Source: Nitrospirota bacterium (GTDB lineage: Bacteria; Nitrospirota; Thermodesulfovibrionia; UBA6902). Taken from it: DNA of 64,000 bases. Shown piece by piece: positions 25,916 to 43,296 of the stretch. The translations under genes were made by a program, and so were the position numbers. The notes below the pieces were generated by a model. The model ran no database searches, was not told the origin of the DNA, and worked only from the letters and a program-made list of their open reading frames with translations. Location of the stretch: positions 5,874 to 69,873 of the forward strand of contig JACRPZ010000002.1 of assembly GCA_016222905.1 (NCBI GenBank). Direction: 5' to 3'. Numbering within the stretch: the first letter of the stretch is position 1; each line of letters starts with the position of its first letter.

Positions 25916-26944
25916 CTAAACGCTGTGTCTTCTCCTTAAATAATAAATTGCCCCAAGCCCTGCAAGCGCCATGAAGATTATCATGCCCCATTCGTTTATG
26001 GTGGGTACCGTTAGCCCACCGGATACAGCCACTCCCCAAGGGCTATTCAAGGTAGTTGAGCCGCCTGAGATGGTTTGAGCAGGCACCACATTTCCACTAG
26101 CACTTATCGGAAATACCGTGATGCTGTTATTAGGTGGATAGTTTGCCGCATATATTGAGCTTGCATCCACCGCTATCGCAACAGGGTTGTTCAAGGCCGT
26201 TGAGCCTCCTGAGATGGTGCGGGTGGGTGCTGCATTCCCAGTTGCGTTTATCGGGAATACCGTAATGCTGTTAGTATTATAATTTGCCACATAAATCCAG
26301 CTTGCGTCCACTGCTATGCCGGCAGGGTTGTTTAATGTCGTTGAGCCGCCTGAAATGGTGCGTGTGGGAACAACATTTCCAGTGGCGTTTATCGGGAATA
26401 CAAGAATGCTGTTATTAAAATTAGTCACATACATCCAGTTGGCATCAACCGCTATTTCATTAGGGAAGTTTAAGGTAGTTGAGCCGCCTGCAATTGTGCG
26501 AGTCGGCGCGACGTTCCCAGTGGCGTTTATCGGAAATACAACGATGTTATGATTTAAATAATTTGTTACATAGATCCAGTTGGCATCTACGGCTATCCCT
26601 GAAGGGAAAGGGGCAAGGTTTGTTGAGCCTCCTGAGATAGTGCGGGTGGGCGCAACATTCCCAGTGGCGTTTATCGGAAATATGGTGACGCTTCCGTTAT
26701 TATTTGCCACATAAATCCAGTTGGCATCTATATCAACCCCGCGGCAGCCGTTCAATGTTGTTGCCCCGCCGGCGATGCTGGTTGTGGGCGCTGTGTTGCC
26801 TGTGGCGTTACTAGGCCATGTTGCGACACTGGAGCCAATAAAGTTAGATACATAAATATCTGCCCGCGCCTCAAACGGGTAAAGAGAACCGACACTCAGT
26901 AAAACCAAAAAAGATATAACAAAACAAAAAAGCCTCTGCCGCAT
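25916..26944 (-). CDS. Secreted beta-propeller repeat protein (7 x ~42-aa repeats) with a C-terminal IPTL-CTERM-like sorting signal.
   Basis: Repeats of 'SITVFPINATGNxAPTRTISGGSTxLNNPxGIAVDAxWIYVANY'. Tail 'VPTINEWGMIIFMALAGLGAIYYLRRRHSV'. Signal peptide. Confidence 0.65.
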   Translation of the reverse strand: MRQRLFCFVISFLVLLSVGSLYPFEARADIYVSNFIGSSVATWPSNATGNTAPTTSIAGGATTLNGCRGVDIDANWIYVANNNGSVTIFPINATGNVAPTRTISGGSTNLAPFPSGIAVDANWIYVTNYLNHNIVVFPINATGNVAPTRTIAGGSTTLNFPNEIAVDANWMYVTNFNNSILVFPINATGNVVPTRTISGGSTTLNNPAGIAVDASWIYVANYNTNSITVFPINATGNAAPTRTISGGSTALNNPVAIAVDASSIYAANYPPNNSITVFPISASGNVVPAQTISGGSTTLNSPWGVAVSGGLTVPTINEWGMIIFMALAGLGAIYYLRRRHSV

Positions 26945-30879: not shown

Positions 30880-31890
30880 CTATATTACCAGCATCGCGTC
30901 CCCGTATGAAAAAAACCTGTAACCGGTCTTTTGAGCCCCTGCGTAAGCCTTTTTCAAAAGGCTGAGTCCTGAGAATGCGGAGGTGAGCATCATTGGGGTT
31001 GATTTAGGCTGATGAAAGTTTGTAACAAGCGCGTCTATTACCCTGAATTCATAGCCGGGATAGATAAATATTGACGTATCCCCTTGACCGCTCTTTATTC
31101 TCCTGCCGGAACATCCTGAAGCAGACGCTTCAAGCGCCCTTGTCACAGTCGTGCCTACTGCAATGACCCTTCTGCCCTCTGCTTTAGCGAGGTTAACAGC
31201 CCCGGCGGTCTCTTTCGAGATTTCGTAAGATTCAACATCCATAACATGATTTTTAATATCATCGCTTCTGACCGGTTTAAAAGTGCCGTAACCGACATGG
31301 AGTGTGAGCATCCGCACATCAATGCCTTTCTTCTTTATAGCATTGATAATTTTATCAGTAAAATGAAGGCCTGCCGTAGGCGCGGCTATCGCCCCTTCTT
31401 TATCTGCATATACTGTCTGATAGCGTTCAGTGTCAGTTTTTCCAGCCGCTCTCTTTATATATGGAGGAAGCGCCATAACCCCGATCTTATCTAAAGAACC
31501 CCTTATGTTTTCCCCTTCAAATTTTACTCTGGCAACCCCGTTTGACGGCGATACATGAGCTGTGATGCCGCCCTTGAGCGAAACCTTCCCCTTAAATGCC
31601 CCTTTCATAATGGCTTCCCATACATTTTCCTGAAGCTCTTTCAAGAGCAATATCTCTGTCTTCCCTCCCGATGCTCTTGTTCCGTAAAGACGCGCCGGAA
31701 TAACTTTGGTATTGTTAAGAACAAGAACGTCTCCCGGCTTAAGAAACTCAACAATATCTTTGAAGAGCCTGTGTTCAAACATGTCGGACTCCCTGTTAAG
31801 AACACACAATCTGGAGGACTCCCTATTCGGAAGAGGATGCTGCGCTATCCGGGCTTGAGGTATATCGTAATCAAATTCTGAAAGTTTCAT
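30880..31890 (-). CDS. queA: S-adenosylmethionine:tRNA ribosyltransferase-isomerase QueA.
   Basis: 'MKLSEFDYDIPQARIAQHPL..R..SRL' N-terminus and overall QueA organisation. Confidence 0.9.
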   Translation of the reverse strand: MKLSEFDYDIPQARIAQHPLPNRESSRLCVLNRESDMFEHRLFKDIVEFLKPGDVLVLNNTKVIPARLYGTRASGGKTEILLLKELQENVWEAIMKGAFKGKVSLKGGITAHVSPSNGVARVKFEGENIRGSLDKIGVMALPPYIKRAAGKTDTERYQTVYADKEGAIAAPTAGLHFTDKIINAIKKKGIDVRMLTLHVGYGTFKPVRSDDIKNHVMDVESYEISKETAGAVNLAKAEGRRVIAVGTTVTRALEASASGCSGRRIKSGQGDTSIFIYPGYEFRVIDALVTNFHQPKSTPMMLTSAFSGLSLLKKAYAGAQKTGYRFFSYGDAMLVI

Positions 31891-31927
31891 ATGACTTGCT
31901 TAACCCAAAAAATACATTTAAATAAAA

Positions 31928-32080
31928 CCACAGAGTTCACAGAGCTTTTCAAAAATCTAAAATTCTTTTTCTCTGTGTCCACTGTGGTGAAACAATTCTT
32001 TCCCTCTTTTTTTATGAAACTTTTAATATTACCAATTCTTCTTTTGCTATCAAAATATTTCCTCTGAGGTCTCTGTGGTT
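31928..32080. repeat. Three copies of a CCACAGAG/CTCTGTGG motif. Two form an imperfect inverted repeat followed by a T-rich run on the minus strand, a possible terminator of the ygjP-hsd operon or a regulator site.
   Basis: ccacagagttcacagag (31928-44), tctctgtgtccactgtggtg (31970-89), cctctgaggtctctgtggtt (32061-80). Confidence 0.3.
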
Positions 32081-32096
32081 AATTGCGGTTCCCGGG

Positions 32097-32768
32097 TTAA
32101 ATGCTCAAAGTCCTTCCATTATCCTTCAACCACGTTCGTCTTCTTTTGAAATCAGGCTGAATGCTTTTGACCTTATCCCAAAATAACCTTGAATGATCTC
32201 TTTGCTCCAAATGTACAAGTTCATGCACAACTACATAGTCAATTATTTCCATCGGCGCCATTATCAAACGCCAGTTATAATTTACCGTTCCTCTGTACCC
32301 GCTTGAGCCCCATCTTTTTTTAGCATTACTGATTTTGATTGATAGCGGCTTGTATCCGGTAAGCCTTGAATACCACTCACAGCGCTCTTTTATCTTCTTT
32401 TCTGCTTCAGATTTGTACCATTTTTTCACAACATCCCTGGCACAAGACGCTTTCTCTTGAGATAAAAGCAGATTATCTTTAAGCTCAACATCACCAACAA
32501 TATCATCCACAATTTTCAACTTATAGCTCTCTCCAAGATAAAGGAACGACTCTCCATTTATAAATTCTTTGTCTTTTGGCTTGGGTTTTCTCTGCATCTC
32601 CCGCATCTTTGTCCTGATCCAGTCTCGTTTTATATTGACCAGACTCTTAAGGTAATCAAGCGGGGTTTTTAGCGGAGAACGAATAACAAGCGTTGCATCA
32701 TGCGTCACCACAAGCGCAATCGTTCTTCTCTTTGAGCGGATTATTTTGCTGATCTCAATTTCTTGCAT
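32097..32768 (-). CDS. YgjP-like metal-dependent hydrolase (DUF45/WLM-like, HExxH).
   Basis: 'YVVVHELVHLEQRDHS' HExxH motif. This family commonly flanks Type I RM operons. Confidence 0.6.
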   Translation of the reverse strand: MQEIEISKIIRSKRRTIALVVTHDATLVIRSPLKTPLDYLKSLVNIKRDWIRTKMREMQRKPKPKDKEFINGESFLYLGESYKLKIVDDIVGDVELKDNLLLSQEKASCARDVVKKWYKSEAEKKIKERCEWYSRLTGYKPLSIKISNAKKRWGSSGYRGTVNYNWRLIMAPMEIIDYVVVHELVHLEQRDHSRLFWDKVKSIQPDFKRRRTWLKDNGRTLSI

Positions 32769-32778
32769 TTTCGATTCT

Positions 32779-33096
32779 TTAAAATCTCGGCATTAATTTT
32801 AACCTTTTTTCCAATTTCTCATAATCACCTAAATAAGCCATCATTAGAGCTTTCCAGAGTTTGCCATGATTCGGGACTCGGAAGTGCAGGAGTTCATGAA
32901 CGATTACATATTCGCCCAAGTCTTGTGCCATTGCAAGCAATGCCTCGTCAAATGTAAAGTTGCCTTTTGTTGAACACGAAGCCCATTTGTTTTTCATCTG
33001 GCGAATCGTGATATGGCTTGCCTTCACGCCAATATTATCGGCAAAGTGAAGAACTCTCTTCTTAAATTCTTCTTTATTTTTCCAATGTTTTTTCAT
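32779..33096 (-). CDS. Second short YgjP/DUF45-like protein (HELLH).
   Basis: 'YVIVHELLHFRVPNHGKLW'. Overlaps the hsdR stop by 4 nt. Confidence 0.5.
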   Translation of the reverse strand: MKKHWKNKEEFKKRVLHFADNIGVKASHITIRQMKNKWASCSTKGNFTFDEALLAMAQDLGEYVIVHELLHFRVPNHGKLWKALMMAYLGDYEKLEKRLKLMPRF

Positions 33097-36023
33097 AGCT
33101 TAAAGGCTTTGAATAGATATGAGAAAAATGTTTCTACGAATTTAATAATGTCTTCATCTGAAGCCTGGTCGTCATGATTCATAATTGCAAACATTACTTG
33201 TTGCCGTAGTTCTCTCAGGTCATTCTCGCTTGTCTTCCAATGAGGATTATACGCAAACGCATGTTTTATTTTTCGTGCGATTGTTTCTGAATTCTTGAAA
33301 TTCTTTTCAACCAGCAATAGGTAAACGAAGTAAGTAATATCGTCAAATTGTTTTTCTGCCTGTTCTCTCTTCTGTTCAACTGTTCTTTGAATCAAAGATT
33401 CCAGCCTTGCTAAAGTTTCTTCTGTGGTCAACTGACGGGCTTCATATCCTTCCTGAATGGCTTCAGCCTTTTGCTTCATCGAGATAAGCACCAGATCACC
33501 TTCTTCATCATCCGCTGCCTTATCAATGCTTTTAATCAGGTTGATGATTTTCACATTGTCGGGTTTGTTGTTCTTTTTAATTTCCTCCAATGTATGTTCA
33601 TTGATCTCAAACAAATCAGTTGGTTTACCTAATCCCGCTATCTCAACTCGTTCCTTAACAAGACTTTCCGTCTTGCGCATAAATTCCCTGTCCACATAAA
33701 CACGCTTCACAAAGGCATTGCGGACTATTAAGTACATATCGCATAGCAATTTGTATTTGTCTATATAAGGAAGCAGAAACTGATCCGGCGAAATGATTTC
33801 GTAAAGGGTTTCAATCTGCTTGTAGAATTTAAATAACTCGGTGCGCCTGGATTTGTCTTTGAAGTATTCAATCAGCTTGTCTGTTTCTTTATCGGTAAAA
33901 GGCTGATTTACCAGTGCCGCATACACAGAACCTTCATTTTCCATCTTCTCGTTGAACAGGTTCTTCAGCAGGGCAATGTCTTTCACAACAGCATTTACTT
34001 CATCAGAATCAAATGAAAGCGCCTTTTCGAGTTTATCAAAGATACCGATAAAATCAAGCACAAAGCCGTGAGGTTTTTTTAAATCCTTGTCTTCGTCCTC
34101 ATACGGTCTGTTTACCCTTGCTATGGCTTGCAGTAAAGTATGGTCACGCATCGGCTTATCAAGATACATTGCATACAGGCAGGGCGCATCATAACCGGTA
34201 AGCAGTTTCTCTGTTACGATAAGCACCTTTGGCAGCTTTTCAATGTTTGCAAAATCTTTCCGTACTGCCTTTTCATCTCTTGAAGTAAGATAGTATCTCT
34301 TTAATGCTTCACTGTCATTCTGTGCAGGGGTATAAACCACTTTTGAATATTCAGGCGGCAGATATTTATCCAATGCTTCCTTATACAAGGCACAAGCCTC
34401 TCTGTCAACGCCCACCAGAAATGCCTTGTAGCCCAGCGGTTCTACATTTTCTCTGAAATGCTTTGCCACATACTGAGCCACTGCATCAACCCTCTGGTCT
34501 GCCTTGAGGAATGTTTTTGTCTGCACGGCCCTTTGCAGTATCTTATTCAGCTCATCAATGTCACTGATGCCTTCTGTTTCTGCAAGGGATAAAAATTCCT
34601 TCTCCAGCAGCTCTGAAGGAACGCGCAATTCATTAGGCGCAAGCGCGTAGAAAAGCGGAAGGGTTGTTCCGTCTTTAATGGACTCGGCAATAGAATATTT
34701 ATGCAGATAACCTTTATCATCATCAATGCCGAAAATTTTAAATGTGCCTTTACCGTAAGCTGTTTTGTCTACTGGTGTGCCTGAAAAACCAATTAACGAT
34801 GAATTTGGGATAGCAGCCATCAGGTAAGTGCCAAGATCGCTTCCTGTGCTCCGGTGTGCTTCATCAATCAATACATAGATATTCTTTCTGGTGTTAAGGG
34901 GTTTATCGGTCTTGTCGAATTTATGGATCATTGAAACGATAATGCCCCGGTAATCTTTCTTTAAAAGCCGATTGAGATGCACACGGCTTGTGACCAGAGT
35001 AACTGCTCCAATGCCTAATGATTCAAGATTACGCTTCATCTGGTCTTCTAATTCGTTGCGGTCCAGTAACAAAATGATGGTGGGCTTTTCGGCCTGAGGC
35101 GCTTTGTAAAGCATCTCAGCAGTTTTGATGATGGTAAATGTCTTGCCGCTGCCTTGTGTATGCCATACCAAACCCCTGCGCTTTTCAGGCGCAATGCATC
35201 TGTCTATTACGAGTTCAACCGCCTTTGTTTGATGCTGCTTCAGGATAAACTTGTTTAGCTCCTCATCCTTCTCTACAAACAGGATGTAATTCTTTATAAA
35301 AGCCAATACCTGCGGGATGGCACAAAAGGTCTTAACCTTGGCTTCAAGATTGCCGATTTCCTCATGCTTCCAGTTGAATATATTTCTGCGGACTAAATTC
35401 CATGTGACACCATAAGAGAATCCCAATGATTCGGTAACAGAGAGCAATTGTTGCGGCAGCATCATTTCAGGAGTTTCCCTGTGGTAGCGCCTGATCTGGT
35501 CAATGCCTATGGCAATGGCTTCGTCTTTTGTTGCGTTCTTACATTCAATTACCAAAACAGGAATACCGTTAATGAGAAACACAACATCCTCACGGTTGGC
35601 ATAATGGCCATTGAAAACTGTGTATTCTTCAGTGATGTGATAAACATTTTTATCAGGCTCGGTAAAATCAATCAACTGCAAATTGAGATCACGGTTTTCG
35701 GCCTTGCAGAAGTAGGTTTTTTCGCCTCTTAGCATTGTCAGAAAATCACGGTTGCCTTGTATGCTAAAAGGAAAGTTGGTTAAGGTTCGGATGAGTTCTT
35801 CCTTGCTGAGTTCATAACGAGGGTTAAACTCGATGACCTTATTGAACAGAATATCGTCAAAGAAGAGAGAGGCCTTTCGTGCCTGCTCTTTAGGGGTTAA
35901 AGCATTCAGGTCAAACTTGCGCCATTCCTCTGCTTGTGATTGTAGAATAAAAGTCCACCCGATTTGCGATGCATAACGGGTGATTGGATATTGAACGGCT
36001 TTATGTTCTGTCGGCCCGGGCAT
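33093..36023 (-). CDS. hsdR: Type I restriction enzyme, R subunit (HsdR).
   Basis: 976 aa; N-terminal HsdR_N region, helicase motifs 'GSGKTFT' and 'DEAHRS', plus a C-terminal domain. Confidence 0.9.
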   Translation of the reverse strand: MPGPTEHKAVQYPITRYASQIGWTFILQSQAEEWRKFDLNALTPKEQARKASLFFDDILFNKVIEFNPRYELSKEELIRTLTNFPFSIQGNRDFLTMLRGEKTYFCKAENRDLNLQLIDFTEPDKNVYHITEEYTVFNGHYANREDVVFLINGIPVLVIECKNATKDEAIAIGIDQIRRYHRETPEMMLPQQLLSVTESLGFSYGVTWNLVRRNIFNWKHEEIGNLEAKVKTFCAIPQVLAFIKNYILFVEKDEELNKFILKQHQTKAVELVIDRCIAPEKRRGLVWHTQGSGKTFTIIKTAEMLYKAPQAEKPTIILLLDRNELEDQMKRNLESLGIGAVTLVTSRVHLNRLLKKDYRGIIVSMIHKFDKTDKPLNTRKNIYVLIDEAHRSTGSDLGTYLMAAIPNSSLIGFSGTPVDKTAYGKGTFKIFGIDDDKGYLHKYSIAESIKDGTTLPLFYALAPNELRVPSELLEKEFLSLAETEGISDIDELNKILQRAVQTKTFLKADQRVDAVAQYVAKHFRENVEPLGYKAFLVGVDREACALYKEALDKYLPPEYSKVVYTPAQNDSEALKRYYLTSRDEKAVRKDFANIEKLPKVLIVTEKLLTGYDAPCLYAMYLDKPMRDHTLLQAIARVNRPYEDEDKDLKKPHGFVLDFIGIFDKLEKALSFDSDEVNAVVKDIALLKNLFNEKMENEGSVYAALVNQPFTDKETDKLIEYFKDKSRRTELFKFYKQIETLYEIISPDQFLLPYIDKYKLLCDMYLIVRNAFVKRVYVDREFMRKTESLVKERVEIAGLGKPTDLFEINEHTLEEIKKNNKPDNVKIINLIKSIDKAADDEEGDLVLISMKQKAEAIQEGYEARQLTTEETLARLESLIQRTVEQKREQAEKQFDDITYFVYLLLVEKNFKNSETIARKIKHAFAYNPHWKTSENDLRELRQQVMFAIMNHDDQASDEDIIKFVETFFSYLFKAFKL

Positions 36024-36029
36024 TTGTAG

Positions 36030-37313
36030 CTATACCTTTTTAAACTGCAAATCCTTCACCCTTATCTGCCCCGTCATCAATTGATGCAGCATGCTGCGGA
36101 ACAAGGCCATGAGAGTTTGTTTTTTTGTCTGGTGATGCTGGAGTTTTCTATCTAATACCATTAATGAATTAGCAACTTCTTCTTGTTCTATTTTTGTCTT
36201 TGGAATAGCTAATCGAATATCTTTTAAATCTTCTCTTGTAATGCCTTTAATTGTTGCACCCCTTTTTTGTGCTTCAAATATTCTTTGAACTCTTTCCGTG
36301 AGAATTTGGTAAGCAAGAAATTCAAGACAATACTTTTTTCTATTAATAAGAATTCCCGTTAAATCTTGGCTAATTGCCATATCAACTAAATTGATTGCAA
36401 CTTTACCAACTGTTACCCTTGTTGAGACGATCAGATTATTTTTAGGAACTACATTTGATGAACTATTCCCTAAGCCAATTTTTGAAATTCTCCTTTCGCC
36501 GTCTTCAAGGTAAATTTTATCAGTTGCTAATCTTTTGCTGGTTGTCCAATGAATATCTCCAATCCAATACTTATCATTCTTTGTTGAAGGAGTTCCACCG
36601 CCCAAAAAATTAAAACCTACATTTTCAATCTTTTTTACCTCCCAACTCGCCGGTATCAAGCCGACCTCGGTTTGTTTCTGCGCTTCTCCTTTTGTGCCTT
36701 CGGTGAAGAGTTTTTGCATCAGGGCATTTTTCAACTCTGTTGTGGTTCGGATTATCTGCTCCTGCTTTTGTATGGCGGATTGCATAAGGGTAAGGATGTG
36801 GGAGATGGATTGTTGTTCAGAATATGGGGGAAGAGGAATTTTAATTCCTTTTACATCTGAATCCCTAACAGCAGGATAACTTGCTCCTCTTTGCAATTGA
36901 GCAATCTCATTAATATAGAAATCAGTTAAAAGGTAGTAATATAAAAATCTGTAAGCAACCAATGACTTGTTGGCTTTAAGGACGCAATACCCTGTGCTGC
37001 ATAATTCTTTATGGAGATCGGACTCAACTATTGCAACTCTTTTCAATGTAGGTCTCACAGTAGCAAAAATTACATCATCTGCTTCAATTATTTTTCTTGC
37101 TCTGCTTGGGGCATTTTCCCCTTTCAGTATTGAGTATTCTTGTATTTGGAAGAGTTCGTTATTAACTCCGGAAACATCAACATATTTTATTTCTTCATCC
37201 GGTTTTTTACTTGGATCTCTTTGTTGTGTTTTCAGAACGACTTTGCTGATTGGAATATAATCCCAATCTTTTGGCAGAAATGCTTCCTCAATATGCTTTG
37301 AATGATTCACCAT
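36030..37313 (-). CDS. hsdS: Type I restriction-modification specificity subunit (HsdS) with two target-recognition domains.
   Basis: Two repeated half-domains with conserved inter-TRD coiled-coil regions (LPPLSEQQ..I-like 'LPPYSEQQSI'). Position between hsdM and hsdR. Confidence 0.8.
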   Translation of the reverse strand: MVNHSKHIEEAFLPKDWDYIPISKVVLKTQQRDPSKKPDEEIKYVDVSGVNNELFQIQEYSILKGENAPSRARKIIEADDVIFATVRPTLKRVAIVESDLHKELCSTGYCVLKANKSLVAYRFLYYYLLTDFYINEIAQLQRGASYPAVRDSDVKGIKIPLPPYSEQQSISHILTLMQSAIQKQEQIIRTTTELKNALMQKLFTEGTKGEAQKQTEVGLIPASWEVKKIENVGFNFLGGGTPSTKNDKYWIGDIHWTTSKRLATDKIYLEDGERRISKIGLGNSSSNVVPKNNLIVSTRVTVGKVAINLVDMAISQDLTGILINRKKYCLEFLAYQILTERVQRIFEAQKRGATIKGITREDLKDIRLAIPKTKIEQEEVANSLMVLDRKLQHHQTKKQTLMALFRSMLHQLMTGQIRVKDLQFKKV

Positions 37314-37316
37314 TAA

Positions 37317-38912
37317 TCAATACCCAATTTTTTCCAAAACAATTCTCAATTCTTCATCAACGATCTTTGCTTCTTCATCCAACTCATTCAACTCAACCAC
37401 CAACTCGGCGATATCCCTGTGCTCTATAGCATCAGCAGTATGTATGTAGCGGCTGGGGCTAAGGTTGTAGTCGTTCTTTTCTATTTCTGCCATGGTTGCA
37501 ATGAGAGCAAATTTATCCGCTTTGCCTTTGCCATTGGCAAACAGTTTTTTATAAGTGCTGACAATTTTCTCTATTGCCTCATCGTGCAGATAGTTCTTTG
37601 GATCGCCTTTTGTAAAGTCACGGCTGGCATTGATGAGGATGAATTTTTCTTTCAGTTGTTTGGGTTTGTTGTGGTTCAAAAACAACACAATGCCCGGAGC
37701 GCTGGTGTTGTAAAACAGGTTTTCAGGGAGATACAAAATGCCTTCAATCAAGTCCTGCTCGACAAACCATTTGCGCATTTCCTTTTCCCGGTCTTTGCTT
37801 TTGCTGCCGCTGCCACGGCTTACTGCACCAGTATCCAATACAATTGCTGCACGGCCATTATCTTTTAAAGATGCAAGGATATGCTGAGCCCATCCCCAGT
37901 CAGCGCTGTCGCTTGGAGGTATGCGGTTGCCGAAGCGGTCATATTCGTCATTCTCATAAACATCTTGTGTAAATGTCTTCTGGTTCCACATCGGGTTGGC
38001 AGTGACCCGATCAAATTTCTTCAAGCCTTTGCCTTTATAATCAAAGCGGCTGGGTTTTGTCATTGTGTTGCCAATCGCTATTTCCCCTTCCATTTCGTGA
38101 ATGACCATATTCATATTCGCCATGGCCCAGGTAGCGGGAGTATATTCCTGCCCGTAGAGTTTTAAAGGGGCGTACCGGGTTTTGCTTCGCAGTTCCATCT
38201 TCTCCTGTAACACCAATTCCATTTTAATCAACAATCCGGCAGAGCCGCTGGTGGGGTCGTAGCCTTCCATCCCCGGCTCCGGGTCAAGGATGCGCGCCAT
38301 GACAAAACCAACTTCTTTCGGGGTGTAAAATTCCCCCGCGCTCTGTCCGCCGCCCTCCGCAAACTTGCGTATGAGGTATTCGTAGCTTCTGCCAATGATG
38401 TCAGGTTCCACATCCTTTAAGCCCAGACGTTTCTCACTTATTTTATTGATAAGCTGAGAAATCTGGTCGTCATCCATGTCCCGCTGTCCGTGAGTGGTAG
38501 CATTGTAATCAATGCGGTTAATGATTCCCTCTATTCGTGTGTTCTCCTTTGCAATCCCCCGCATAATATCGGTAAGCTGCTGGCCGAGGCTTTCCTTTTC
38601 TTTCGCCTGCAAAAGTTTGATCACATTCCAGGTGGGATCATTTCCAACATCTTTGGAACGAATAGGAAGATAGAAGCGAACCAGCTTATGATCTTTCTCG
38701 ATCAAACTAAAAGCCCGTTTACGGCTGCCAGCCTGTGAAGAAATTTTGTTGACCTCATCATCAAACACATCACACAACCGCTTCACAAATACCAGGGGAA
38801 GTATAAAATCTTTGAACTTCGGCGCATCCTGCGCTCCTCGAATCGCACAAGCCGCATCCCATAACCAAGACTCAAGAGTTTTTTCTTTATCGTTGTTGTT
38901 ATTTTTTGCCAT
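37317..38912 (-). CDS. hsdM: Type I RM N6-adenine DNA methyltransferase (HsdM).
   Basis: 'GSAGLL' SAM motif and 'NPMW' (NPPF/NPPW-type) catalytic motif. The ORF track starts at 38972, but the internal 'MAKNNNNDKEKTLESWLWDAA' at 38912 is the typical HsdM N-terminus. Confidence 0.8.
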   Translation of the reverse strand: MAKNNNNDKEKTLESWLWDAACAIRGAQDAPKFKDFILPLVFVKRLCDVFDDEVNKISSQAGSRKRAFSLIEKDHKLVRFYLPIRSKDVGNDPTWNVIKLLQAKEKESLGQQLTDIMRGIAKENTRIEGIINRIDYNATTHGQRDMDDDQISQLINKISEKRLGLKDVEPDIIGRSYEYLIRKFAEGGGQSAGEFYTPKEVGFVMARILDPEPGMEGYDPTSGSAGLLIKMELVLQEKMELRSKTRYAPLKLYGQEYTPATWAMANMNMVIHEMEGEIAIGNTMTKPSRFDYKGKGLKKFDRVTANPMWNQKTFTQDVYENDEYDRFGNRIPPSDSADWGWAQHILASLKDNGRAAIVLDTGAVSRGSGSKSKDREKEMRKWFVEQDLIEGILYLPENLFYNTSAPGIVLFLNHNKPKQLKEKFILINASRDFTKGDPKNYLHDEAIEKIVSTYKKLFANGKGKADKFALIATMAEIEKNDYNLSPSRYIHTADAIEHRDIAELVVELNELDEEAKIVDEELRIVLEKIGY

Positions 38913-38992
38913 AAGCTCTTTTAAAACCAGCCTCTTGATTTTAATCAAACGTGAGGATAAACGACAAGGCAAATAGGCACATTATAATTCCC

Positions 38993-39439
38993 CTATGGAT
39001 ATTTTATCAGCTTCTTGATAAAAGGCTTCACAATAGGGCTCTCTTTTATTGCCTGAACAATCTTCTCCTTAACTTCTTTTGGGATATTGCACGTCACAAT
39101 TGTAAATTTATGGTCAGGATCCACTATTTTCCCGAAATGTGATTTATGTATCAGCTTTGGCTGATTGCAATCAATAATGCTCATCTTCTTTAAAAAAGAC
39201 AGCTCGTCCTTATTTACAATGACAAGGCTCGATCCCGCGACTTGATTGGTTTTGTGATAATACCACGCTTTGTTCTCAACCTGAGAAGTAATAATGCATA
39301 ACAACAAACTTGAATCGTCACTGATAGGCACTGTTATATGATAATGAGGCGGGGCTTCCGGATTGTGAGTTGTGTTCTTGAAATAGCATACGCAAAATCC
39401 TGTCAGAGTTTTGGCGATATACTCCAGCGGGATGTCCAC
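38993..39439 (-). CDS. Hypothetical 148-aa protein immediately downstream of a Panacea-domain antitoxin; candidate cognate toxin of unknown family.
   Basis: 2-nt spacing to the upstream DUF4065 gene, same strand. No motif I can recognise. Confidence 0.4.
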   Translation of the reverse strand: MDIPLEYIAKTLTGFCVCYFKNTTHNPEAPPHYHITVPISDDSSLLLCIITSQVENKAWYYHKTNQVAGSSLVIVNKDELSFLKKMSIIDCNQPKLIHKSHFGKIVDPDHKFTIVTCNIPKEVKEKIVQAIKESPIVKPFIKKLIKYP

Positions 39440-39441
39440 GA

Positions 39442-40008
39442 TCAGTCAAATGTGCCTGTCAGAATTTTTTCTGACTCTTTGACATGTCTGCGCGGCATTG
39501 ACAGCGGATCATTCCTTAACGTGGAGAGTAATTCTTTTGTCTCGATACGCTCTCTTTTTGTGAGTTTATTCTTTAGCATATCTTCATATCTATACCATTC
39601 AGGATACTGGTGCGTATAATTTCTTAATTGCCATGAGGTCATAGTTCCAAACTTATCAATAATAAAATCCAGAGATTCTTTATCAGTATCTGACAACATA
39701 TCAAATGAAACTTTAGCTTTTGGATTTGCACTGAAATGATTTTCATCAATCTTTTCGATTAATGACGCCGCATAGCGGTATCCTTTTTTTGAGAAAAAAG
39801 GGTCAAAGCTGAGTACGTCTTTAACTGTTGTCCCTACCGGCCCGTGTTCCATTGCATAGTAATCATCATTTGTAATGGTTCGTCCGTAGCGAATGAGATG
39901 GTACTTGTCAGCAAGATATATTAGCTTGACGAGTTTGATTTTATCGGCTTTTTTCAGTTTCTTGAGGATATAATAAAGCGCTTCAATTATGGTGGATGTC
40001 TCTATCAT
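39442..40008 (-). CDS. Panacea-domain (DUF4065, SocA-like) antitoxin.
   Basis: 'KLVKLIYLADKYHLIRYGRTITNDDYYAMEHGPV' is the DUF4065/Panacea signature. Confidence 0.7.
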   Translation of the reverse strand: MIETSTIIEALYYILKKLKKADKIKLVKLIYLADKYHLIRYGRTITNDDYYAMEHGPVGTTVKDVLSFDPFFSKKGYRYAASLIEKIDENHFSANPKAKVSFDMLSDTDKESLDFIIDKFGTMTSWQLRNYTHQYPEWYRYEDMLKNKLTKRERIETKELLSTLRNDPLSMPRRHVKESEKILTGTFD

Positions 40009-40077
40009 GATAATTTCCCTGTAATGTCTTTAGGTGTAAGATTTTATACGTTAATTATATCAGAAAAAAGTTCTCAG

Positions 40078-40308
40078 TTAAACAAAAGCAAAGACGTCCA
40101 TGCTGACGGTCTTTTCAGGCTTTGCTTCTCCGTGAACCATGCGACGGATCTTTTCAGTTGTTTCCATACTGAAAACAGGCTCGCCGCACCTTTCACAGAT
40201 TGCAGCAGGAATATGCTCAACCAGCACAGGTTTACCGTCAATTTGAAAAACCTCATTTACAAACCCTTCTTTTGCTTCTGTAAAGCCGCATGCATGGCAA
40301 TGAAACAT
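40078..40308 (-). CDS. YgiT-type zinc-finger (MqsA N-terminal-like) antitoxin.
   Basis: 'CHACGF...ICERCGE' two CxxC pairs; 76 aa. Pairs with the upstream DUF4258-like gene. Confidence 0.7.
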   Translation of the reverse strand: MFHCHACGFTEAKEGFVNEVFQIDGKPVLVEHIPAAICERCGEPVFSMETTEKIRRMVHGEAKPEKTVSMDVFAFV

Positions 40309-40310
40309 CT

Positions 40311-40620
40311 TTACCTCCTTTTCTCAAAACCAATCCATTGCACTTCGTCCGGTTCGTAAATAGTGATAATCTTTAAAATTTCAGAATCCTCAACGGATAT
40401 CTGCATGTGCAACGGACGTTTATTTTGAGTAAAACCTAATAATAAACAACTCGGCGAATATTTATCATCAGGATGATTCTTCAATAATTTTAACATTATT
40501 TGCGGTTCCGCGTATTTCGAGTTCACTGATATTACGCTCGATTGCGCGTTTGAACGCATGACGGGTAAATTCGAACTGTCCTGATGTTAACTGCTTACGA
40601 ACTTGTTCAATTGTTTTCAT
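40311..40620 (-). pseudogene. DUF4258-family toxin gene disrupted by a +1 frameshift.
   Basis: The N-terminal frame from the ATG at 40620 reads 'MKTIEQVRKQLTSGQFEFTRHAFKRAIERNISELEI...KIIEESS*'. The C-terminal frame (track ORF 40311-40559) reads '...HPDDKYSPSCLLLGFTQNKRPLHMQIS...IITIYEPD'. Deleting one base in GAAGAATCATCC (rc of 40471-40482) restores 'EEYPDDKY', so the two halves form one family member in two frames. Confidence 0.6.
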
Positions 40621-40661
40621 CTATATGCATAACCTATGTTTTAAGAAGTGGTAAATTTTTC

Positions 40662-41675
40662 TTAATCTCCGACAGCCTGCTTTCCGATATTTGTCCCGGG
40701 ATAATAATGCGCAAGGATTTCTTTGTAGTTCTTCCCTTCTCTTGCCATTTCAAGCGCTCCCCACTGGCATAATCCGACTCCGTGTCCCCATCCTCTGCCT
40801 TCAAAGGTCACGCCTGCCTGACCAGTAGGCATAATCTCGGCCTCTTTGGTAAGCGAAAAGTCAGTGCTTGGAAGTATTTTATACCCAAGGTACTTTCTGA
40901 GATCAGTTGCTCTGATCTCCAATTCTGTTTCTGCAGTACCTGTGGTTATCTTAAGCGTTTTCACTCTCCCTGTGGATGTATATGAGGCTATAGTTATATC
41001 CTTTACGTTCCCTTTTATGCCAACAGCCTTTCCTATCTCATCAAAGGTAAATTCTCTCATCCAGTTATCATAAGGAGTGTTTTTGCTGTTGCAGTCGACT
41101 GACTTCAGGTAAGGATAGCTTCCGCCCCACACCTCTTCGGGAAGCTCCGTCTTTCCAATACATATTGAATGATACAGTGTTTTTGCAGGATTGCCTTCAT
41201 ACATTAAAATCTCTCCCCAAGTCCCCTCTACGGCACGGGTTATCTGAGGATTGATATTATCCTCTTTGAAGACCTGATGAAGCACGCTGGATGTGAGGTC
41301 ATACTCCTTATCTTTATTAAGGTTTTTATAAAAGAGAGCGTATGTTCTTGAGATGACAGCCTGCGCCTTAAGTGCCTCCATCTCCCATCCTCCTCCAGTC
41401 TCTGAAGCCACAACTCCTTTAATATATTTCTCGAAAGGCAGGTCATCTATAATGTAAAGTCCTTTTTCATCCCTCCTCACCTCAAGAGAGCCGGTATAAG
41501 CCTCTCCTTTAAAGAATATCTTTCCGTTTAACTTTCCAAGCCTCTCGGTCTTTTCAGAGGGAAGAGGGGAGTCAGGGTCATCAAGCATCAATACCCTTAT
41601 ATTATCCTCAGCCAGCGAAATCCGGCAGAGAAGAAAGAGAGATGCAAATATTATTAGATATATAAGTCTTTTCAT
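40662..41675 (-). CDS. SpoIID/LytB-domain protein (amidase enhancer-like), secreted.
   Basis: Signal peptide. 'GRGWGHGVGLCQWGA' is the SpoIID signature. Confidence 0.8.
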   Translation of the reverse strand: MKRLIYLIIFASLFLLCRISLAEDNIRVLMLDDPDSPLPSEKTERLGKLNGKIFFKGEAYTGSLEVRRDEKGLYIIDDLPFEKYIKGVVASETGGGWEMEALKAQAVISRTYALFYKNLNKDKEYDLTSSVLHQVFKEDNINPQITRAVEGTWGEILMYEGNPAKTLYHSICIGKTELPEEVWGGSYPYLKSVDCNSKNTPYDNWMREFTFDEIGKAVGIKGNVKDITIASYTSTGRVKTLKITTGTAETELEIRATDLRKYLGYKILPSTDFSLTKEAEIMPTGQAGVTFEGRGWGHGVGLCQWGALEMAREGKNYKEILAHYYPGTNIGKQAVGD

Positions 41676-42250
41676 CTTAGAGCCATTCTTCTCTCTTCCC
41701 TGCTGAAGATACAGCCGCAGTATTTCTGTCTGTAAAGCCCAAGCTCTTTGGCCATAGCCTGCGACTTTCTGAAATGCGGCCTGAAATCTTTGACATAAAA
41801 AAGGATATTATATTTTTCAGCCAATTCTTTTCCTGTTGCAGCAATCTCTTCAAAGTCCTGATACGGACTTATCAGCAGGGTTGTTGAGAAGGCATCAAAG
41901 CCGTTTTGACAAACCTTTTCAGCAGTCTTCTCAAGCCTCAGCTTATAGCACATTTTACAACGTTCAGCCCGTTCAACATTATTAGCCTCTTCTACATGGT
42001 CAACTCCGCTTAAATCGTCAATTCCGAACATTTTAAAATATTCTGCCGGATCATAGTCTTCAGTGTAATGCATTTTAACAAACCATCTCCCCGCAAGCTC
42101 TTTAAGAGAATCAAGCCTTAAGCTGTATTCTTCATACGGATGGATATTCGGATTAAACCAGAAACCTGAATAATCATGCCTCTCTTCCTGTAACAGCTTG
42201 AAAGGGTATGCGGCGCAATTGCCGCAGCATATGTGAAGAAGAATCTTCAT
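41672..42250 (-). CDS. queH: Epoxyqueuosine reductase QueH (DUF208).
   Basis: 'LLHICCGNCA' Cys cluster and C-terminal 'KYCGC'. Typical QueH size (192 aa). Confidence 0.8.
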   Translation of the reverse strand: MKILLHICCGNCAAYPFKLLQEERHDYSGFWFNPNIHPYEEYSLRLDSLKELAGRWFVKMHYTEDYDPAEYFKMFGIDDLSGVDHVEEANNVERAERCKMCYKLRLEKTAEKVCQNGFDAFSTTLLISPYQDFEEIAATGKELAEKYNILFYVKDFRPHFRKSQAMAKELGLYRQKYCGCIFSREERRMALR

Positions 42251-42279
42251 TGTATTCAGAAGACATCTGTGGCTAATAA

Positions 42280-43296
42280 TTAAAAGAGTTCTTTGTCCTT
42301 CTTGATCCCAAAGTGTTCATATGCAAGTCTTGTTGCCATGCGCCCTCTCGGGGTTCTTTCGATAAAGCCCGCCTGCAGAAGGTACGGTTCATAGACATCC
42401 TCTATAGTATTCTTCTCGTCCTGTATTGAAGCCGCGAGCGTCTCGATGCCGACCGGACCGCCGCTGTATTTTTCAATTATTGTGAGCATAAGCTTCCTGT
42501 CCATATTGTCAAATCCCATCTTGTCAACATCCATCGCCAACAGCGCCTCATCTGCTATTTTCAGATTTATCGTCCCGTCTCCTTTTACCTGAGCAAAATC
42601 CCTGATACGCCTGAGCAGGCGGTTAGCGATCCTTGGCGTCCCCCTTGACCTTCTGGCGATTTCATGAGCTGCTTCGTTCCCGAGCTCGACATTTAATATC
42701 TTTGCAGAACGGAAAAGTATCGTTTCAAGCTCTGACGGCATATAAAAATCAAGCCTGTTGATCACCCCGAACCTGTCTCTGAGAGGAGAGGTCAGAAGGC
42801 CGGTTCTTGTGGTTGCGCCTATGAGCGTAAATTTAGGGAGGCTCAGCTTGAGAGTTCTTGCGCTCGGCCCCTGCCCGATAATAATATCAAGCTGGTAATC
42901 CTCCATAGCAGGGTAAAGCACCTCCTCTGCTATTCTGGGAAGCCGGTGTATTTCATCAATAAAGAGTATGTCCATCGGCCCGAGATTTGTCAGTATGGCC
43001 ACCAGATCGCCGGGCCTTTCAAGTACAGGGCCTGATGTGACTTTGATGTCCACTCCTAATTCCAAAGCAATTATATTGGCAAGCGTTGTCTTCCCTAAAC
43101 CCGGGGGGCCGCAGAATAGCACATGGTCAAGCGCTTCCCTTCTCTGCCTGGCAGCCTGGATGAAGATTTTGAGATTCTCCTTTATCTTTTCCTGCCCGAC
43201 AAACTCTTCAAAGGTTTTAGGCCTGATGCTCAGCTCAAAGCCTGTATCATCATCTTTAAGTTCAGGAGTGATCTCTCTTTCAGGTAAATCTATCAT
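42280..43296 (-). CDS. ruvB: Holliday junction branch-migration helicase RuvB.
   Basis: '[14 protein letters not shown]', 'IDEIHRL', overall RuvB. Confidence 0.95.

What the first reader, a model, noticed from the sequence alone, without database searches (positions are those of the whole stretch)
38993..40008. Panacea (DUF4065) antitoxin followed at 2-nt spacing by a 148-aa protein of no recognisable family: a candidate new PanT toxin
Panacea-domain antitoxins are known to neutralise many unrelated toxin folds. The downstream ORF, MDIPLEYIAKTLTGFCVCYF..., has no motif I can place and is tightly coupled to the antitoxin gene.
Basis: inference. Interest (0 to 1): 0.55.

Follow-up and report, generated by a model that had tools for sequence, protein, structure and literature searches.

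The report
Panacea antitoxin with MazF-fold toxin
This is a two-gene toxin-antitoxin cassette whose "unknown" 148-aa partner is predicted to have the fold of the well-known MazF RNA-cutting toxins, so it is a new sequence family of an already described kind of system, not a new kind of toxin.

Summary
On the minus strand, a 188-aa Panacea/DUF4065 gene (40008-39442) is followed after 2 nt by a 148-aa GTG-started ORF (39439-38993).

The 148-aa protein matches no Pfam, NCBIfam, PADLOC, PHROG or PDB sequence above threshold. It is still a real, conserved gene:
- dN/dS is 0.04-0.11.
- A profile search found 535 representatives of 50%-identity clusters, all about 150 aa. Every member with a source name comes from a MAG or metagenome.
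- A homologue of this window's Panacea protein lies directly upstream in all 27 loci holding a complete copy (gap -1 to +3 nt), while the flanking genes differ between genomes.

Conserved T51-S52-Q53 aligns with the MazF catalytic Thr motif. The family has no conserved Arg; an invariant His32 sits near the MazF Arg position.

Panacea paired with MazF-like RNase toxins has already been catalogued, and two pairs were validated (Kurata 2022, clusters T5, T6, T8, T25).

Verdict: a probable PanAT module and a new member of a known kind. Toxicity is untested. Interest is low to moderate.

The parts
39442..40008 (-). panA: 188-aa antitoxin candidate. Standalone Panacea/DUF4065 domain (residues 26-139), no N-terminal HTH or other domain, plus a conserved C-terminal tail.
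   Evidence: Pfam PF13274 E=5e-24. PHROG 1281 E=3e-24. dN/dS 0.05-0.11 against homologues.
39445..39561 (-). Codons for the PanA C-terminal tail (residues 150-188, TKRERIETKELLSTLRNDPLSMPRRHVKESEKILTGTFD). Candidate toxin-binding ('linear neutralisation') element.
   Evidence: The tail lies outside the Pfam domain but is strongly conserved among partner PanAs: R152, I155, D167 and F187 are invariant in 18 pairs, including the distant pairs L009 and L010. A MAG copy (L012) lacks about 57 aa of the Panacea core but keeps the tail, next to an intact toxin gene. The role is inferred by analogy to Phd-C/PAD1/ZBD-type neutralisation (PMC10440598).
39440..39441 (-). 2-nt spacer between the panA stop and the panT GTG start, with no Shine-Dalgarno sequence. 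Suggests translational coupling.
   Evidence: Sequence. In 19 homologous loci the junction is a 0-3 nt gap or a TAATG overlap; the start is GTG in 14 (ATG in 3, TTG in 2).
38993..39439 (-). panT: 148-aa toxin candidate with a predicted MazF/PemK-like SH3-type beta-barrel. It carries an extra helical insert (about residues 54-71) and two C-terminal helices.
39344..39346 (-). Codon of His32. Invariant in 224 family members. Lies at the start of strand beta2, where MazF has its catalytic Arg.
   Evidence: Conservation. A low-confidence global hhalign places H32 opposite EcMazF R29. Codon check.
39281..39289 (-). Codons of T51-S52-Q53 (T/S 99%, S 91%, Q 76%). Equivalent to MazF-ec T52-T53-Q54 and ToxN T52-S53.
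   Evidence: hhalign aligns IITSQ with PCTTQS. Conservation. MazF and ToxN active-site residues from PMC10864209 and PMC5086642.
39164..39169 (-). Codons of C91-N92 (99% and 96% conserved) in the 'IDCNQ' strand. Aligns with the MazF/Kid '(E/D)Q' strand that lines the RNA groove.
39038..39040 (-). Codon of Ser134 (99% conserved, 'SPxVK' motif after the long C-terminal helix). Role unknown.
40054..40081 (-). Promoter-like site (TTAACT, 16-nt spacer, TG-TATAAT) about 45 nt upstream of the panA ATG.
   Evidence: Consensus scan, 10 of 12 matches with an extended -10. This is a pattern match only. No operator-like palindrome was found in 40009-40081.
33093..38972 (-). Context: type I restriction-modification genes directly downstream on the same strand. 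hsdM is 37317-38972 (probable ATG at 38912), hsdS 36030-37313, hsdR 33093-36023.
   Evidence: Pfam N6_Mtase/HsdM_N, Methylase_S, HSDR_N/SWI2_SNF2. No terminator-like site on the minus strand between panT and hsdM. Homologues of the pair elsewhere have other neighbours, none a type I hsdMSR operon.
40078..40620 (-). Context: a second TA-like pair directly upstream. DUF4258 toxin gene (40311-40620, apparently frameshifted) plus a YgiT/MqsA-type zinc-ribbon gene (40078-40308).
   Evidence: Pfam and NCBIfam hits. Frame analysis.

Best explanation
This is a type II toxin-antitoxin cassette of the PanAT class.

The two genes are co-transcribed. The toxin gene has a GTG start and no ribosome-binding site, and it sits 2 nt after the antitoxin stop. 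It is therefore probably translated by coupling, at a lower level than the antitoxin.

PanT is a divergent member of the MazF/Kid/ToxN fold superfamily. It most likely acts as a metal-independent endoribonuclease that cuts single-stranded RNA and stops translation.

Its predicted active site keeps the MazF/ToxN Thr-Ser(-Gln) motif at the end of strand beta3 (T51-S52-Q53) and the Asn/Gln strand (C91-N92-Q93). It lacks the canonical MazF arginine. An invariant His32 sits at about that position and is proposed as the general acid/base.

PanA binds and blocks PanT directly. I infer that the conserved C-terminal tail of PanA (residues ~150-188) lies in the RNA groove of the toxin, as MazE or Phd-C tails do, while the globular Panacea domain acts as scaffold or sensor.

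The cassette is mobile. Here it sits in an ~8.5-kb accessory island with a type I R-M system and a decayed DUF4258/YgiT pair, so a role in phage defence or island stabilisation is plausible.

Shown: gene anatomy, the Panacea domain, conserved synteny, purifying selection, the predicted fold and the residue conservation.
Inferred: toxicity, RNase chemistry, the role of His32, neutralisation by the tail, and the biological role.
For: Anatomy and Panacea domain.

Conserved pair: 27 of 27 loci with a complete toxin gene have a PanA homologue directly upstream, gap -1 to +3 nt. This holds at 29% and 40% toxin identity.

Unrelated flanks in different genomes:
- after cbi genes (L001)
- usp genes (L002)
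- a TA/R-M island (L003-L008)
- an MFS transporter gene (L010)
- ftsZ (L031)
- hisG (L032)
- cofH (L033)

Selection and translation signals: dN/dS is 0.04-0.11 for both genes. The junction carries no SD sequence, and the start is GTG in most homologous loci (14 of 19).

Fold:
- AF2 pLDDT 90.8.
- Foldseek PDB top 27 are MazF plus CptN, probability 0.99-1.00.
- BFVD top hits are named Endoribonuclease or PemK-like.

Weak sequence signals:
- 15 of 72 relatives hit Pfam PemK_toxin (best E 0.0011); no other family is hit by more than 2.
- 2 of 72 hit NCBIfam CptIN.
- hhalign aligns the TSQ motif and the CNQ strand with MazF T52/Q77 (E 6e-4, probability 28%).
- An HMM of 5 MazF sequences repeatedly aligns the same strand.

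Conservation in 224 members: H32 100%, T/S51 99%, S52 91%, C91 99%, N92 96%, S134 99%, K/R142 93%.

Literature:
- PanA:MazF-like pairs were validated as translation-inhibiting TAs that form complexes (PMC8832971).
- PanA neutralises either through the Panacea domain or through appended elements (PMC10440598).
- MazF uses Arg25/Thr48 or Arg29/Thr52 (PMC10864209).
- The ToxN active site is Y29, K33, T52, S53, K55 (PMC5086642).
Against: - No experiment was done, so toxicity and rescue are untested.
- Sequence-level homology to MazF is sub-threshold everywhere. The fold assignment rests on a predicted structure.
- The canonical catalytic Arg, reported as essential in MazF, is absent from the family. 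The H32-to-Arg correspondence comes from a very low-confidence global alignment.
- One MazF-like PanT of cluster T8 (Flavobacterium xanthum) was not toxic in E. coli.
The single-sequence PanA model is unusable (pLDDT 36). The tail-neutralisation idea therefore has only conservation behind it.
- The window copy has Cys117 where the close subfamily has Arg. That position is not conserved family-wide.
Confidence: 0.68

Rival explanations
1. The MazF-fold protein is not an active toxin. It could be a catalytically dead or domesticated RNA/protein-binding partner of PanA, or it could be toxic only after an unknown trigger. In that case the pair would not behave as a classical TA in a toxicity/rescue assay.
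For: The family has no conserved Arg, although Arg is reported as essential in canonical MazF. The one tested T8 MazF-like PanT was not toxic, and 8 of 25 tested PanTs were non-toxic in E. coli.
Against: The polar residues at MazF/ToxN active-site positions are almost invariant across 224 very divergent members: H32, T51, S52, C91, N92, S134. That pattern is typical of an enzyme. ToxN-type RNases work without a catalytic Arg. The strict coupling to an antitoxin-type gene and the weak translation start fit a harmful product.
Confidence: 0.15
2. PanT is a CcdB-like poison of DNA gyrase (same fold) and not an RNase.
Against: All better structural hits are RNases (MazF, Kid, CptN), and no CcdB chain is among the Foldseek hits returned. 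The conserved Thr-Ser-Gln motif aligns with the MazF and ToxN catalytic motif. The weak sequence hits go to PemK and CptIN, not to CcdB.
Confidence: 0.06
3. The pair is mainly an abortive-infection or phage-defence module that works alongside the adjacent type I R-M system. Panacea would sense a phage cue and release the RNase. This does not exclude the main explanation; it concerns the biological role.
For: In the window the pair sits in an accessory island with hsdMSR and another TA pair. Some homologues lie beside R-M, SNF2/PLD, Schlafen-AlbA2 or ResIII genes. A sensor role for Panacea has been proposed (PMC10440598). MazF-fold ToxN and AbiQ are Abi effectors.
Against: Linkage to defence genes is not conserved. 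Several homologues sit at the ends of housekeeping operons such as cbi, hisG and usp. There is no PADLOC hit and no copy in the phage or plasmid collections.
Confidence: 0.25
4. The adjacency is fortuitous and the 148-aa ORF is unrelated to the Panacea gene.
For: None beyond the absence of direct interaction data.
Against: Synteny holds in 27 of 27 loci with a -1 to +3 nt gap, across 29-94% toxin identity and unrelated flanks. The PanA and PanT identities to the window copies fall together.
Confidence: 0.01

Closest known systems
PanAT systems with MazF-like PanT toxins (Kurata et al. 2022, PNAS; clusters T5, T6, T8, T25; validated pairs from Pseudomonas moraviensis and Bifidobacterium ruminantium)
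   Same: - A standalone Panacea antitoxin ('noNTD') comes first, with the toxin immediately downstream (antitoxin-toxin order, gaps of a few nt).
- T5, T6, T8 and the tested T25 toxin had no CDD hit and were recognised as EndoA/PemK/MazF-like only by HHpred or structure prediction.
- The loci are chromosomal and horizontally mobile.
   Different: I could not place this family in any of those clusters. Every named member I saw is from a MAG or metagenome: Nitrospirota, Nitrospinota, Geobacteraceae, Verrucomicrobiota, Bacteroidales, Promethearchaeota. At 148 aa it is longer than canonical MazF, with a helical insert and C-terminal helices, and it lacks the conserved Arg.
MazF/PemK(Kid)/EndoA type II endoribonuclease toxins (Pfam PF02452)
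   Different: - No Pfam hit above threshold.
- No conserved catalytic Arg.
- About 35-40 extra residues.
- The antitoxin is Panacea, not a MazE/PemI (AbrB/SpoVT or RHH type) protein.
ToxN/AbiQ/CptN type III endoribonuclease toxins
   Different: There is no tandem-repeat RNA antitoxin gene upstream (no tandem repeats and no Rfam hit). A protein gene is tightly coupled instead. Structural scores are lower than to MazF.
SocAB (type VI TA; SocA is a Panacea-domain ClpXP adaptor)
   Same: The antitoxin carries the same Pfam domain (SocA_Panacea).
   Different: The NCBIfam SocA equivalog scores 21 bits against a cutoff of 190. The toxin is MazF-fold, not SocB. There is no evidence for proteolytic-adaptor neutralisation.

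Membership tests
PanAT (Panacea-antitoxin TA systems) | The antitoxin contains the Panacea/DUF4065 domain (PF13274). | tested here: met
   E=5e-24, 85.8 bits against a cutoff of 25.7, full-length profile match.
PanAT (Panacea-antitoxin TA systems) | Two-gene locus, same strand, no more than 100 nt apart, conserved in at least 2 species, not part of a longer conserved operon (criteria of Kurata 2022). | tested here: met
   2-nt gap here. 27 of 27 homologous loci have a gap of -1 to +3 nt. Flanking genes differ between genomes.
PanAT (Panacea-antitoxin TA systems) | The toxin inhibits growth and the cognate PanA rescues it. | not testable with these tools
   Needs a toxicity/neutralisation assay.
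PanAT (Panacea-antitoxin TA systems) | PanA and PanT form a direct complex. | not testable with these tools
The single-sequence PanA model has pLDDT 36.
MazF/PemK (PF02452) endoribonuclease toxins | Sequence match to the family model above its gathering threshold. | tested here: not met
   No hit for the window protein. 15 of 72 relatives hit only below threshold, best E 0.0011. PDB profile searches were empty or irrelevant.
MazF/PemK (PF02452) endoribonuclease toxins | SH3-like beta-barrel MazF/Kid/CcdB fold. | tested here: met
MazF/PemK (PF02452) endoribonuclease toxins | Catalytic Arg (Arg25/29) plus Thr (Thr48/52) pair. | tested here: inconclusive
   The Thr equivalent is conserved (T/S51 99%) and aligned by hhalign. 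No Arg is conserved anywhere in the family; an invariant His32 sits at about the Arg position in a low-confidence alignment.
MazF/PemK (PF02452) endoribonuclease toxins | Cognate MazE/PemI-type antitoxin. | tested here: not met
   The partner is a Panacea protein.
MazF/PemK (PF02452) endoribonuclease toxins | Sequence-specific ssRNA cleavage leaving a 2',3'-cyclic phosphate. | not testable with these tools
   Biochemical assay needed.
ToxN/CptN type III TA toxins | Tandem-repeat antitoxic RNA gene immediately upstream of the toxin gene. | tested here: not met
   No tandem repeats in 38000-41000. No Rfam match in 31500-42500. The upstream 567 nt are a conserved protein-coding gene.
ToxN/CptN type III TA toxins | Match to the ToxN/AbiQ or CptIN family models. 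| tested here: not met
   No hit for the window protein. 2 of 72 relatives hit NCBIfam CptIN below threshold (E 0.0047).
CcdB gyrase poisons | CcdB sequence family and gyrase-binding C-terminal residues. | not tested

The most novel reading that the evidence does not exclude
The family may be a distinct, Arg-less branch of the MazF/ToxN superfamily. Its conserved polar set is His32, Thr51-Ser52, Cys91-Asn92, Ser134 and Lys142. Its active site would then resemble the type III toxins ToxN and CptN more than MazF, yet it is neutralised by a protein. In this reading the conserved C-terminal tail of a Panacea antitoxin does the job that the RNA pseudoknot does in type III systems. That would make it an evolutionary bridge between type II and type III RNase toxins. 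It would be widespread in uncultured bacteria and present in at least one Asgard-archaeon MAG (535 representatives of 50%-identity clusters), and it has no model in Pfam, NCBIfam, PADLOC or PHROGs.
Probability: 0.22. Interest if true: 0.45.

Novelty: new member of a known kind. Interest (0 to 1): 0.25.

Why it matters
If confirmed, it adds a sizeable family to the Panacea toxin repertoire. The family has 535 representatives of 50%-identity clusters and is drawn almost entirely from metagenomes. It has no Pfam or NCBIfam model, so it deserves one.

It also offers a natural MazF-fold RNase with His in place of the canonical Arg. That is useful for studying how this fold builds its active site and chooses its cleavage motif.

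The conserved PanA tail, together with a natural Panacea-core deletion variant (L012), gives a simple test of whether Panacea neutralises MazF-like toxins directly or through an appended linear element. It does not open a new class of system.

Tried and rejected
- Sequence-only searches for the 148-aa protein found nothing usable: Pfam, PADLOC, NCBIfam and PHROGs, and PDB phmmer/hmmsearch with the single sequence, A1 and A2. The only PDB 'hits' were chance matches to Cdc27 (E 0.4).
Only the close subfamily (A1) could be scanned in genomes.
- I tried to decide whether the family is one of Kurata's clusters T5, T6, T8 or T25. Two further homologue searches and two cluster look-ups gave only MAG or metagenome members and no RefSeq accession to cross-check against Dataset S1. 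The paper's supplements hold no sequences. This stays unresolved.
- tblastn of PanT against plasmids and phages gave no match. PanA gave one weak plasmid hit, Acetobacter pAOF1. Its 137-aa downstream partner is only remotely similar to the family (hhalign probability 29%).
The single-sequence PanA model is unusable (pLDDT 36).
- The afdb50 library was unavailable.
- I considered Cys117 of the window copy (Arg in at least 90% of close relatives) as an inactivating change. I rejected this as unsupported because the position is variable family-wide (R 33%, K 16%).
- I considered a type III-like RNA antitoxin or another RNA element. No tandem repeats and no Rfam hit were found.
- I looked for an operator palindrome in the panA promoter region and found none.
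Full report
**1. What is in the sequence**

Both ORFs of the finding lie on the minus strand.
- panA runs from 40008 to 39442 (ATG start, 188 aa, TGA stop).
- Two bases (TC) follow.
- The second ORF runs from 39439 to 38993 (GTG start, 148 aa, MDIPLEYIAKTLTGFCVCYF..., TAG stop).

The first protein matches Pfam SocA_Panacea over the whole profile (E=5e-24, residues 26-139). It has no N-terminal HTH or other domain, but it has a ~50-residue C-terminal extension.

The 148-aa protein has no hit in Pfam, PADLOC, PHROGs or PDB sequences. Its only NCBIfam hit is sub-threshold (Mbov_0400, 17.6 bits against a cutoff of 55).

**2. Is the ORF a real gene, and is the pairing real?**

A first homologue search returned 54 proteins. 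Almost all are 146-151 aa, none has a Pfam domain, and those with a source name come from Nitrospirota or Nitrospinota MAGs.

A profile search of 1.84 billion cluster representatives found 535 with E<=1e-3 and 198 with E<=1e-10. They are almost all single-domain proteins of 140-170 aa. Named members also include Verrucomicrobiota, Bacteroidales, Geobacteraceae and a Promethearchaeota MAG.

I fetched 29 loci and located homologues of both window genes with phmmer.
- All 27 loci with a complete toxin gene have a PanA homologue directly upstream on the same strand, with a gap of -1 to +3 nt.
- The other two loci hold a copy cut by the contig end and a 19-aa remnant.
- The rule holds for members only 40% (L009) and 29% (L010) identical to the window protein.

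The flanking genes differ from genome to genome:

| Locus | Neighbouring genes |
|---|---|
| L001 | cobalamin (cbi) genes |
| L002 | usp genes |
| L003-L008 | a TA/R-M island |
| L010 | an MFS transporter gene |
| L031 | ftsZ |
| L032 | hisG |
| L033 | cofH |

Pairwise dN/dS against the window copies is 0.04-0.11 for both genes, with synonymous sites near saturation.

The junction is conserved. In 19 homologous loci the start lies 0-3 nt after the panA stop or overlaps it as TAATG. It is GTG in 14 of them (ATG in 3, TTG in 2). No Shine-Dalgarno sequence is present.

This is the signature of a mobile, translationally coupled two-gene cassette.

**3. What the 148-aa protein is**

An AlphaFold2 model built on 39 family members is confident (mean pLDDT 90.8, pTM 0.83). 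Three independent structure searches agree.

| Search | Result |
|---|---|
| Foldseek vs PDB | The 27 best hits are MazF chains plus CptN: best E 2e-4, probability 0.99-1.00, TM 0.57-0.64 normalised to the target. |
| Foldseek vs BFVD | The best hits are named 'Endoribonuclease' and 'PemK-like protein' (E 1.7e-5). |

Sequence-level signals are weak but point the same way.
- 15 of 72 diverse relatives give sub-threshold hits to Pfam PemK_toxin (best E 0.0011). No other family is hit by more than two.
- 2 of 72 hit NCBIfam CptIN and 6 of 72 hit the Mbov_0400 ICE family.
- I built a five-sequence MazF/Kid/ChpBK alignment and checked the sequences as true PemK members. hhalign of the family against it gives E 6e-4 at only 28% probability. 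It aligns IITSQ with EcMazF PCTTQS and IDCNQ with ALADQ.
- An HMM of the same five sequences repeatedly aligns that strand in many members.

Relative to MazF, the model has two extra helices after beta3 (residues ~54-71) and two C-terminal helices.

**4. Predicted active site**

I aligned 224 full-length members.

| Residue | Conservation |
|---|---|
| H32 | 100% |
| T/S51 | 99% |
| S52 | 91% |
| S87 | 86% |
| D/E90 | 86% |
| C91 | 99% |
| N92 | 96% |
| S134 | 99% |
| K/R142 | 93% |

No arginine is conserved anywhere in the family.

Canonical MazF uses Arg25/Thr48 (B. subtilis) or Arg29/Thr52 (E. coli), and the Arg is reported as essential (PMC10864209). The ToxN active site is Y29, K33, T52, S53 and K55, with no Arg (PMC5086642).

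The family therefore keeps the Thr-Ser(-Gln) motif shared by MazF and ToxN. It has an invariant His at the start of beta2. A low-confidence global alignment places that His opposite EcMazF R29.

I infer a metal-independent endoribonuclease with a His-based variant of the MazF/ToxN active site. That step is inference, not a result.

**5. The antitoxin**

PanA is a standalone Panacea protein. Its tail (residues ~150-188) lies outside the Pfam domain but is strongly conserved among the partner PanAs. R152, I155, D167 and F187 are invariant in 18 pairs, including the two distant ones.

One MAG copy (L012) has lost about 57 residues of the Panacea core but keeps the tail, next to an intact toxin gene.

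Ernits et al. showed that PanA can neutralise in two ways: through the Panacea domain itself, or through appended elements such as Phd-C, PAD1 and ZBD. They proposed a sensor role for Panacea (PMC10440598).

I therefore propose that the tail is the neutralising element here. I could not test this.

**6. Context in the window**

The pair lies in an accessory island of about 8.5 kb (roughly 32097-40620). The island is slightly AT-richer than its flanks and sits between queA (30880-31890) and spoIID/queH (40662-42250).

Its genes, all on the minus strand, listed from low to high window coordinates (the reverse of their transcription order):
- two YgjP-like metallopeptidase genes
- hsdR, hsdS and hsdM
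- panT and panA
- a YgiT/MqsA-type zinc-ribbon gene
- a frameshifted DUF4258 toxin gene

A promoter-like site (TTAACT, 16-nt spacer, TG-TATAAT) lies about 45 nt upstream of panA. No terminator-like site on the minus strand separates panT from hsdM, and hsdM has promoter-like sites of its own. No RNA family, tandem repeat or operator-like palindrome was found.

None of the other loci examined carries a type I hsdMSR operon, though some homologues sit next to other defence-type genes.

**7. Comparison with what is known**

Kurata et al. 2022 catalogued 88 PanT clusters. Several of them (T5, T6, T8, T25) are MazF-like. Some have no CDD hit and were recognised only by HHpred.

The P. moraviensis (T6) and B. 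ruminantium (T25) pairs were validated as TA systems. The P. moraviensis pair was shown to form a complex, and both toxins inhibit translation. A T8 member from Flavobacterium xanthum was not toxic in E. coli (PMC8832971).

The present pair fits all the in-silico PanAT criteria. It resembles these clusters in architecture.

I could not determine whether it belongs to one of them. No member I retrieved has a RefSeq accession, and the supplements hold no sequences.

It fails membership of Pfam PemK_toxin at sequence level and lacks the canonical Arg. I file it as 'MazF/ToxN-superfamily fold, works like a MazF-type toxin', not as a member of PF02452.

**8. Verdict**

This is very probably a PanAT module, but the toxin is not a new fold. 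It is a divergent, unannotated family of the MazF/ToxN superfamily, and that class of PanT has already been described and partly validated.
- Novelty: new member of a known kind.
- Interest: about 0.25.
- The most novel reading still open is an Arg-less, ToxN-like active site neutralised by a Panacea tail. I give it about 0.2 probability.

Noticed in passing
window 40311-40620 (-) and 40078-40308 (-): This is a second TA-like pair directly upstream of panA. The DUF4258 toxin gene is split into two overlapping frames: the N-terminal 50 aa at 40620-40468 match profile positions 1-33, and the C-terminal part at 40559-40311 matches positions 29-71. That indicates a frameshift near 40470-40480, so it is a pseudogene or a sequencing error. 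A 76-aa YgiT/MqsA-type zinc-ribbon gene without an HTH follows.
   Followed up: partly
window 32097-40620: An accessory island of about 8.5 kb, slightly AT-richer than its flanks, lies between two queuosine genes (queA at 30880-31890 and queH at 41672-42250, next to spoIID). It carries two YgjP-like metallopeptidase ORFs (223 aa full length, and 105 aa covering only the C-terminal half), hsdR, hsdS, hsdM, and the two TA-like pairs.
   Followed up: partly
window 39089-39091 (PanT codon 117, TGC): The window PanT has Cys117. At least 90% of the close Nitrospirota subfamily, including the 94%-identical P0001, has Arg there. The position is variable in the wider family (R 33%, K 16%), so the functional meaning is unclear.
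   Followed up: yes
L012 2600-2998 (MAG JACQXG010000038.1): This PanA homologue has an internal deletion of about 57 aa in the Panacea core (132 aa in total). It keeps the conserved C-terminal tail and sits next to an intact PanT gene. It could be a natural hint that the tail is enough for neutralisation, or it could be an assembly artefact.
   Followed up: no
L023 3001-3399 and L029 3001-3057: These are decayed copies of the toxin gene. In L023 the C-terminus is replaced after about residue 111. In L029 only a 19-aa C-terminal remnant remains and no PanA is detectable.
   Followed up: no
L030 2405-3387 (Acetobacter orientalis plasmid pAOF1, AP018516.1): This was the only plasmid hit to the window PanA (33% identity). 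A 137-aa 'phage protein' follows it after 14 nt. That protein aligns over 112 columns with the PanT family profile (hhalign E 5.8e-4, probability 29%), including the H-x-H strand and the C-terminal 'SP...K' motif, but it lacks TSQ and CN. It may belong to a wider Panacea-associated MazF-like superfamily.
   Followed up: partly
L031 7089-8777 and L033 6887-8257: In two unrelated Nitrospirota contigs the PanAT pair is followed, after a small ORF, by a Schlafen/AlbA_2-domain ATPase-like gene. L031 also has a ResIII helicase gene. This may be a recurrent defence-gene neighbourhood.
   Followed up: no
window 38973-38996: An imperfect palindrome (ATAGGCACATTATAA / TTATAATTCCCCTAT) overlaps the panT stop codon and a -10-like TATAAT in the 80-nt spacer before the probable hsdM start (ATG at 38912). 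It could be an hsdM promoter or operator, or it could be chance.
   Followed up: no
window 25916-26944 (-): A 342-aa secreted beta-propeller protein (NHL/lactonase-type) has highly regular ~45-aa repeats (…VFPINATGNVAPTRTISGGSTTLN…) and a sub-threshold IPTL-CTERM-like C-terminal motif.
   Followed up: no
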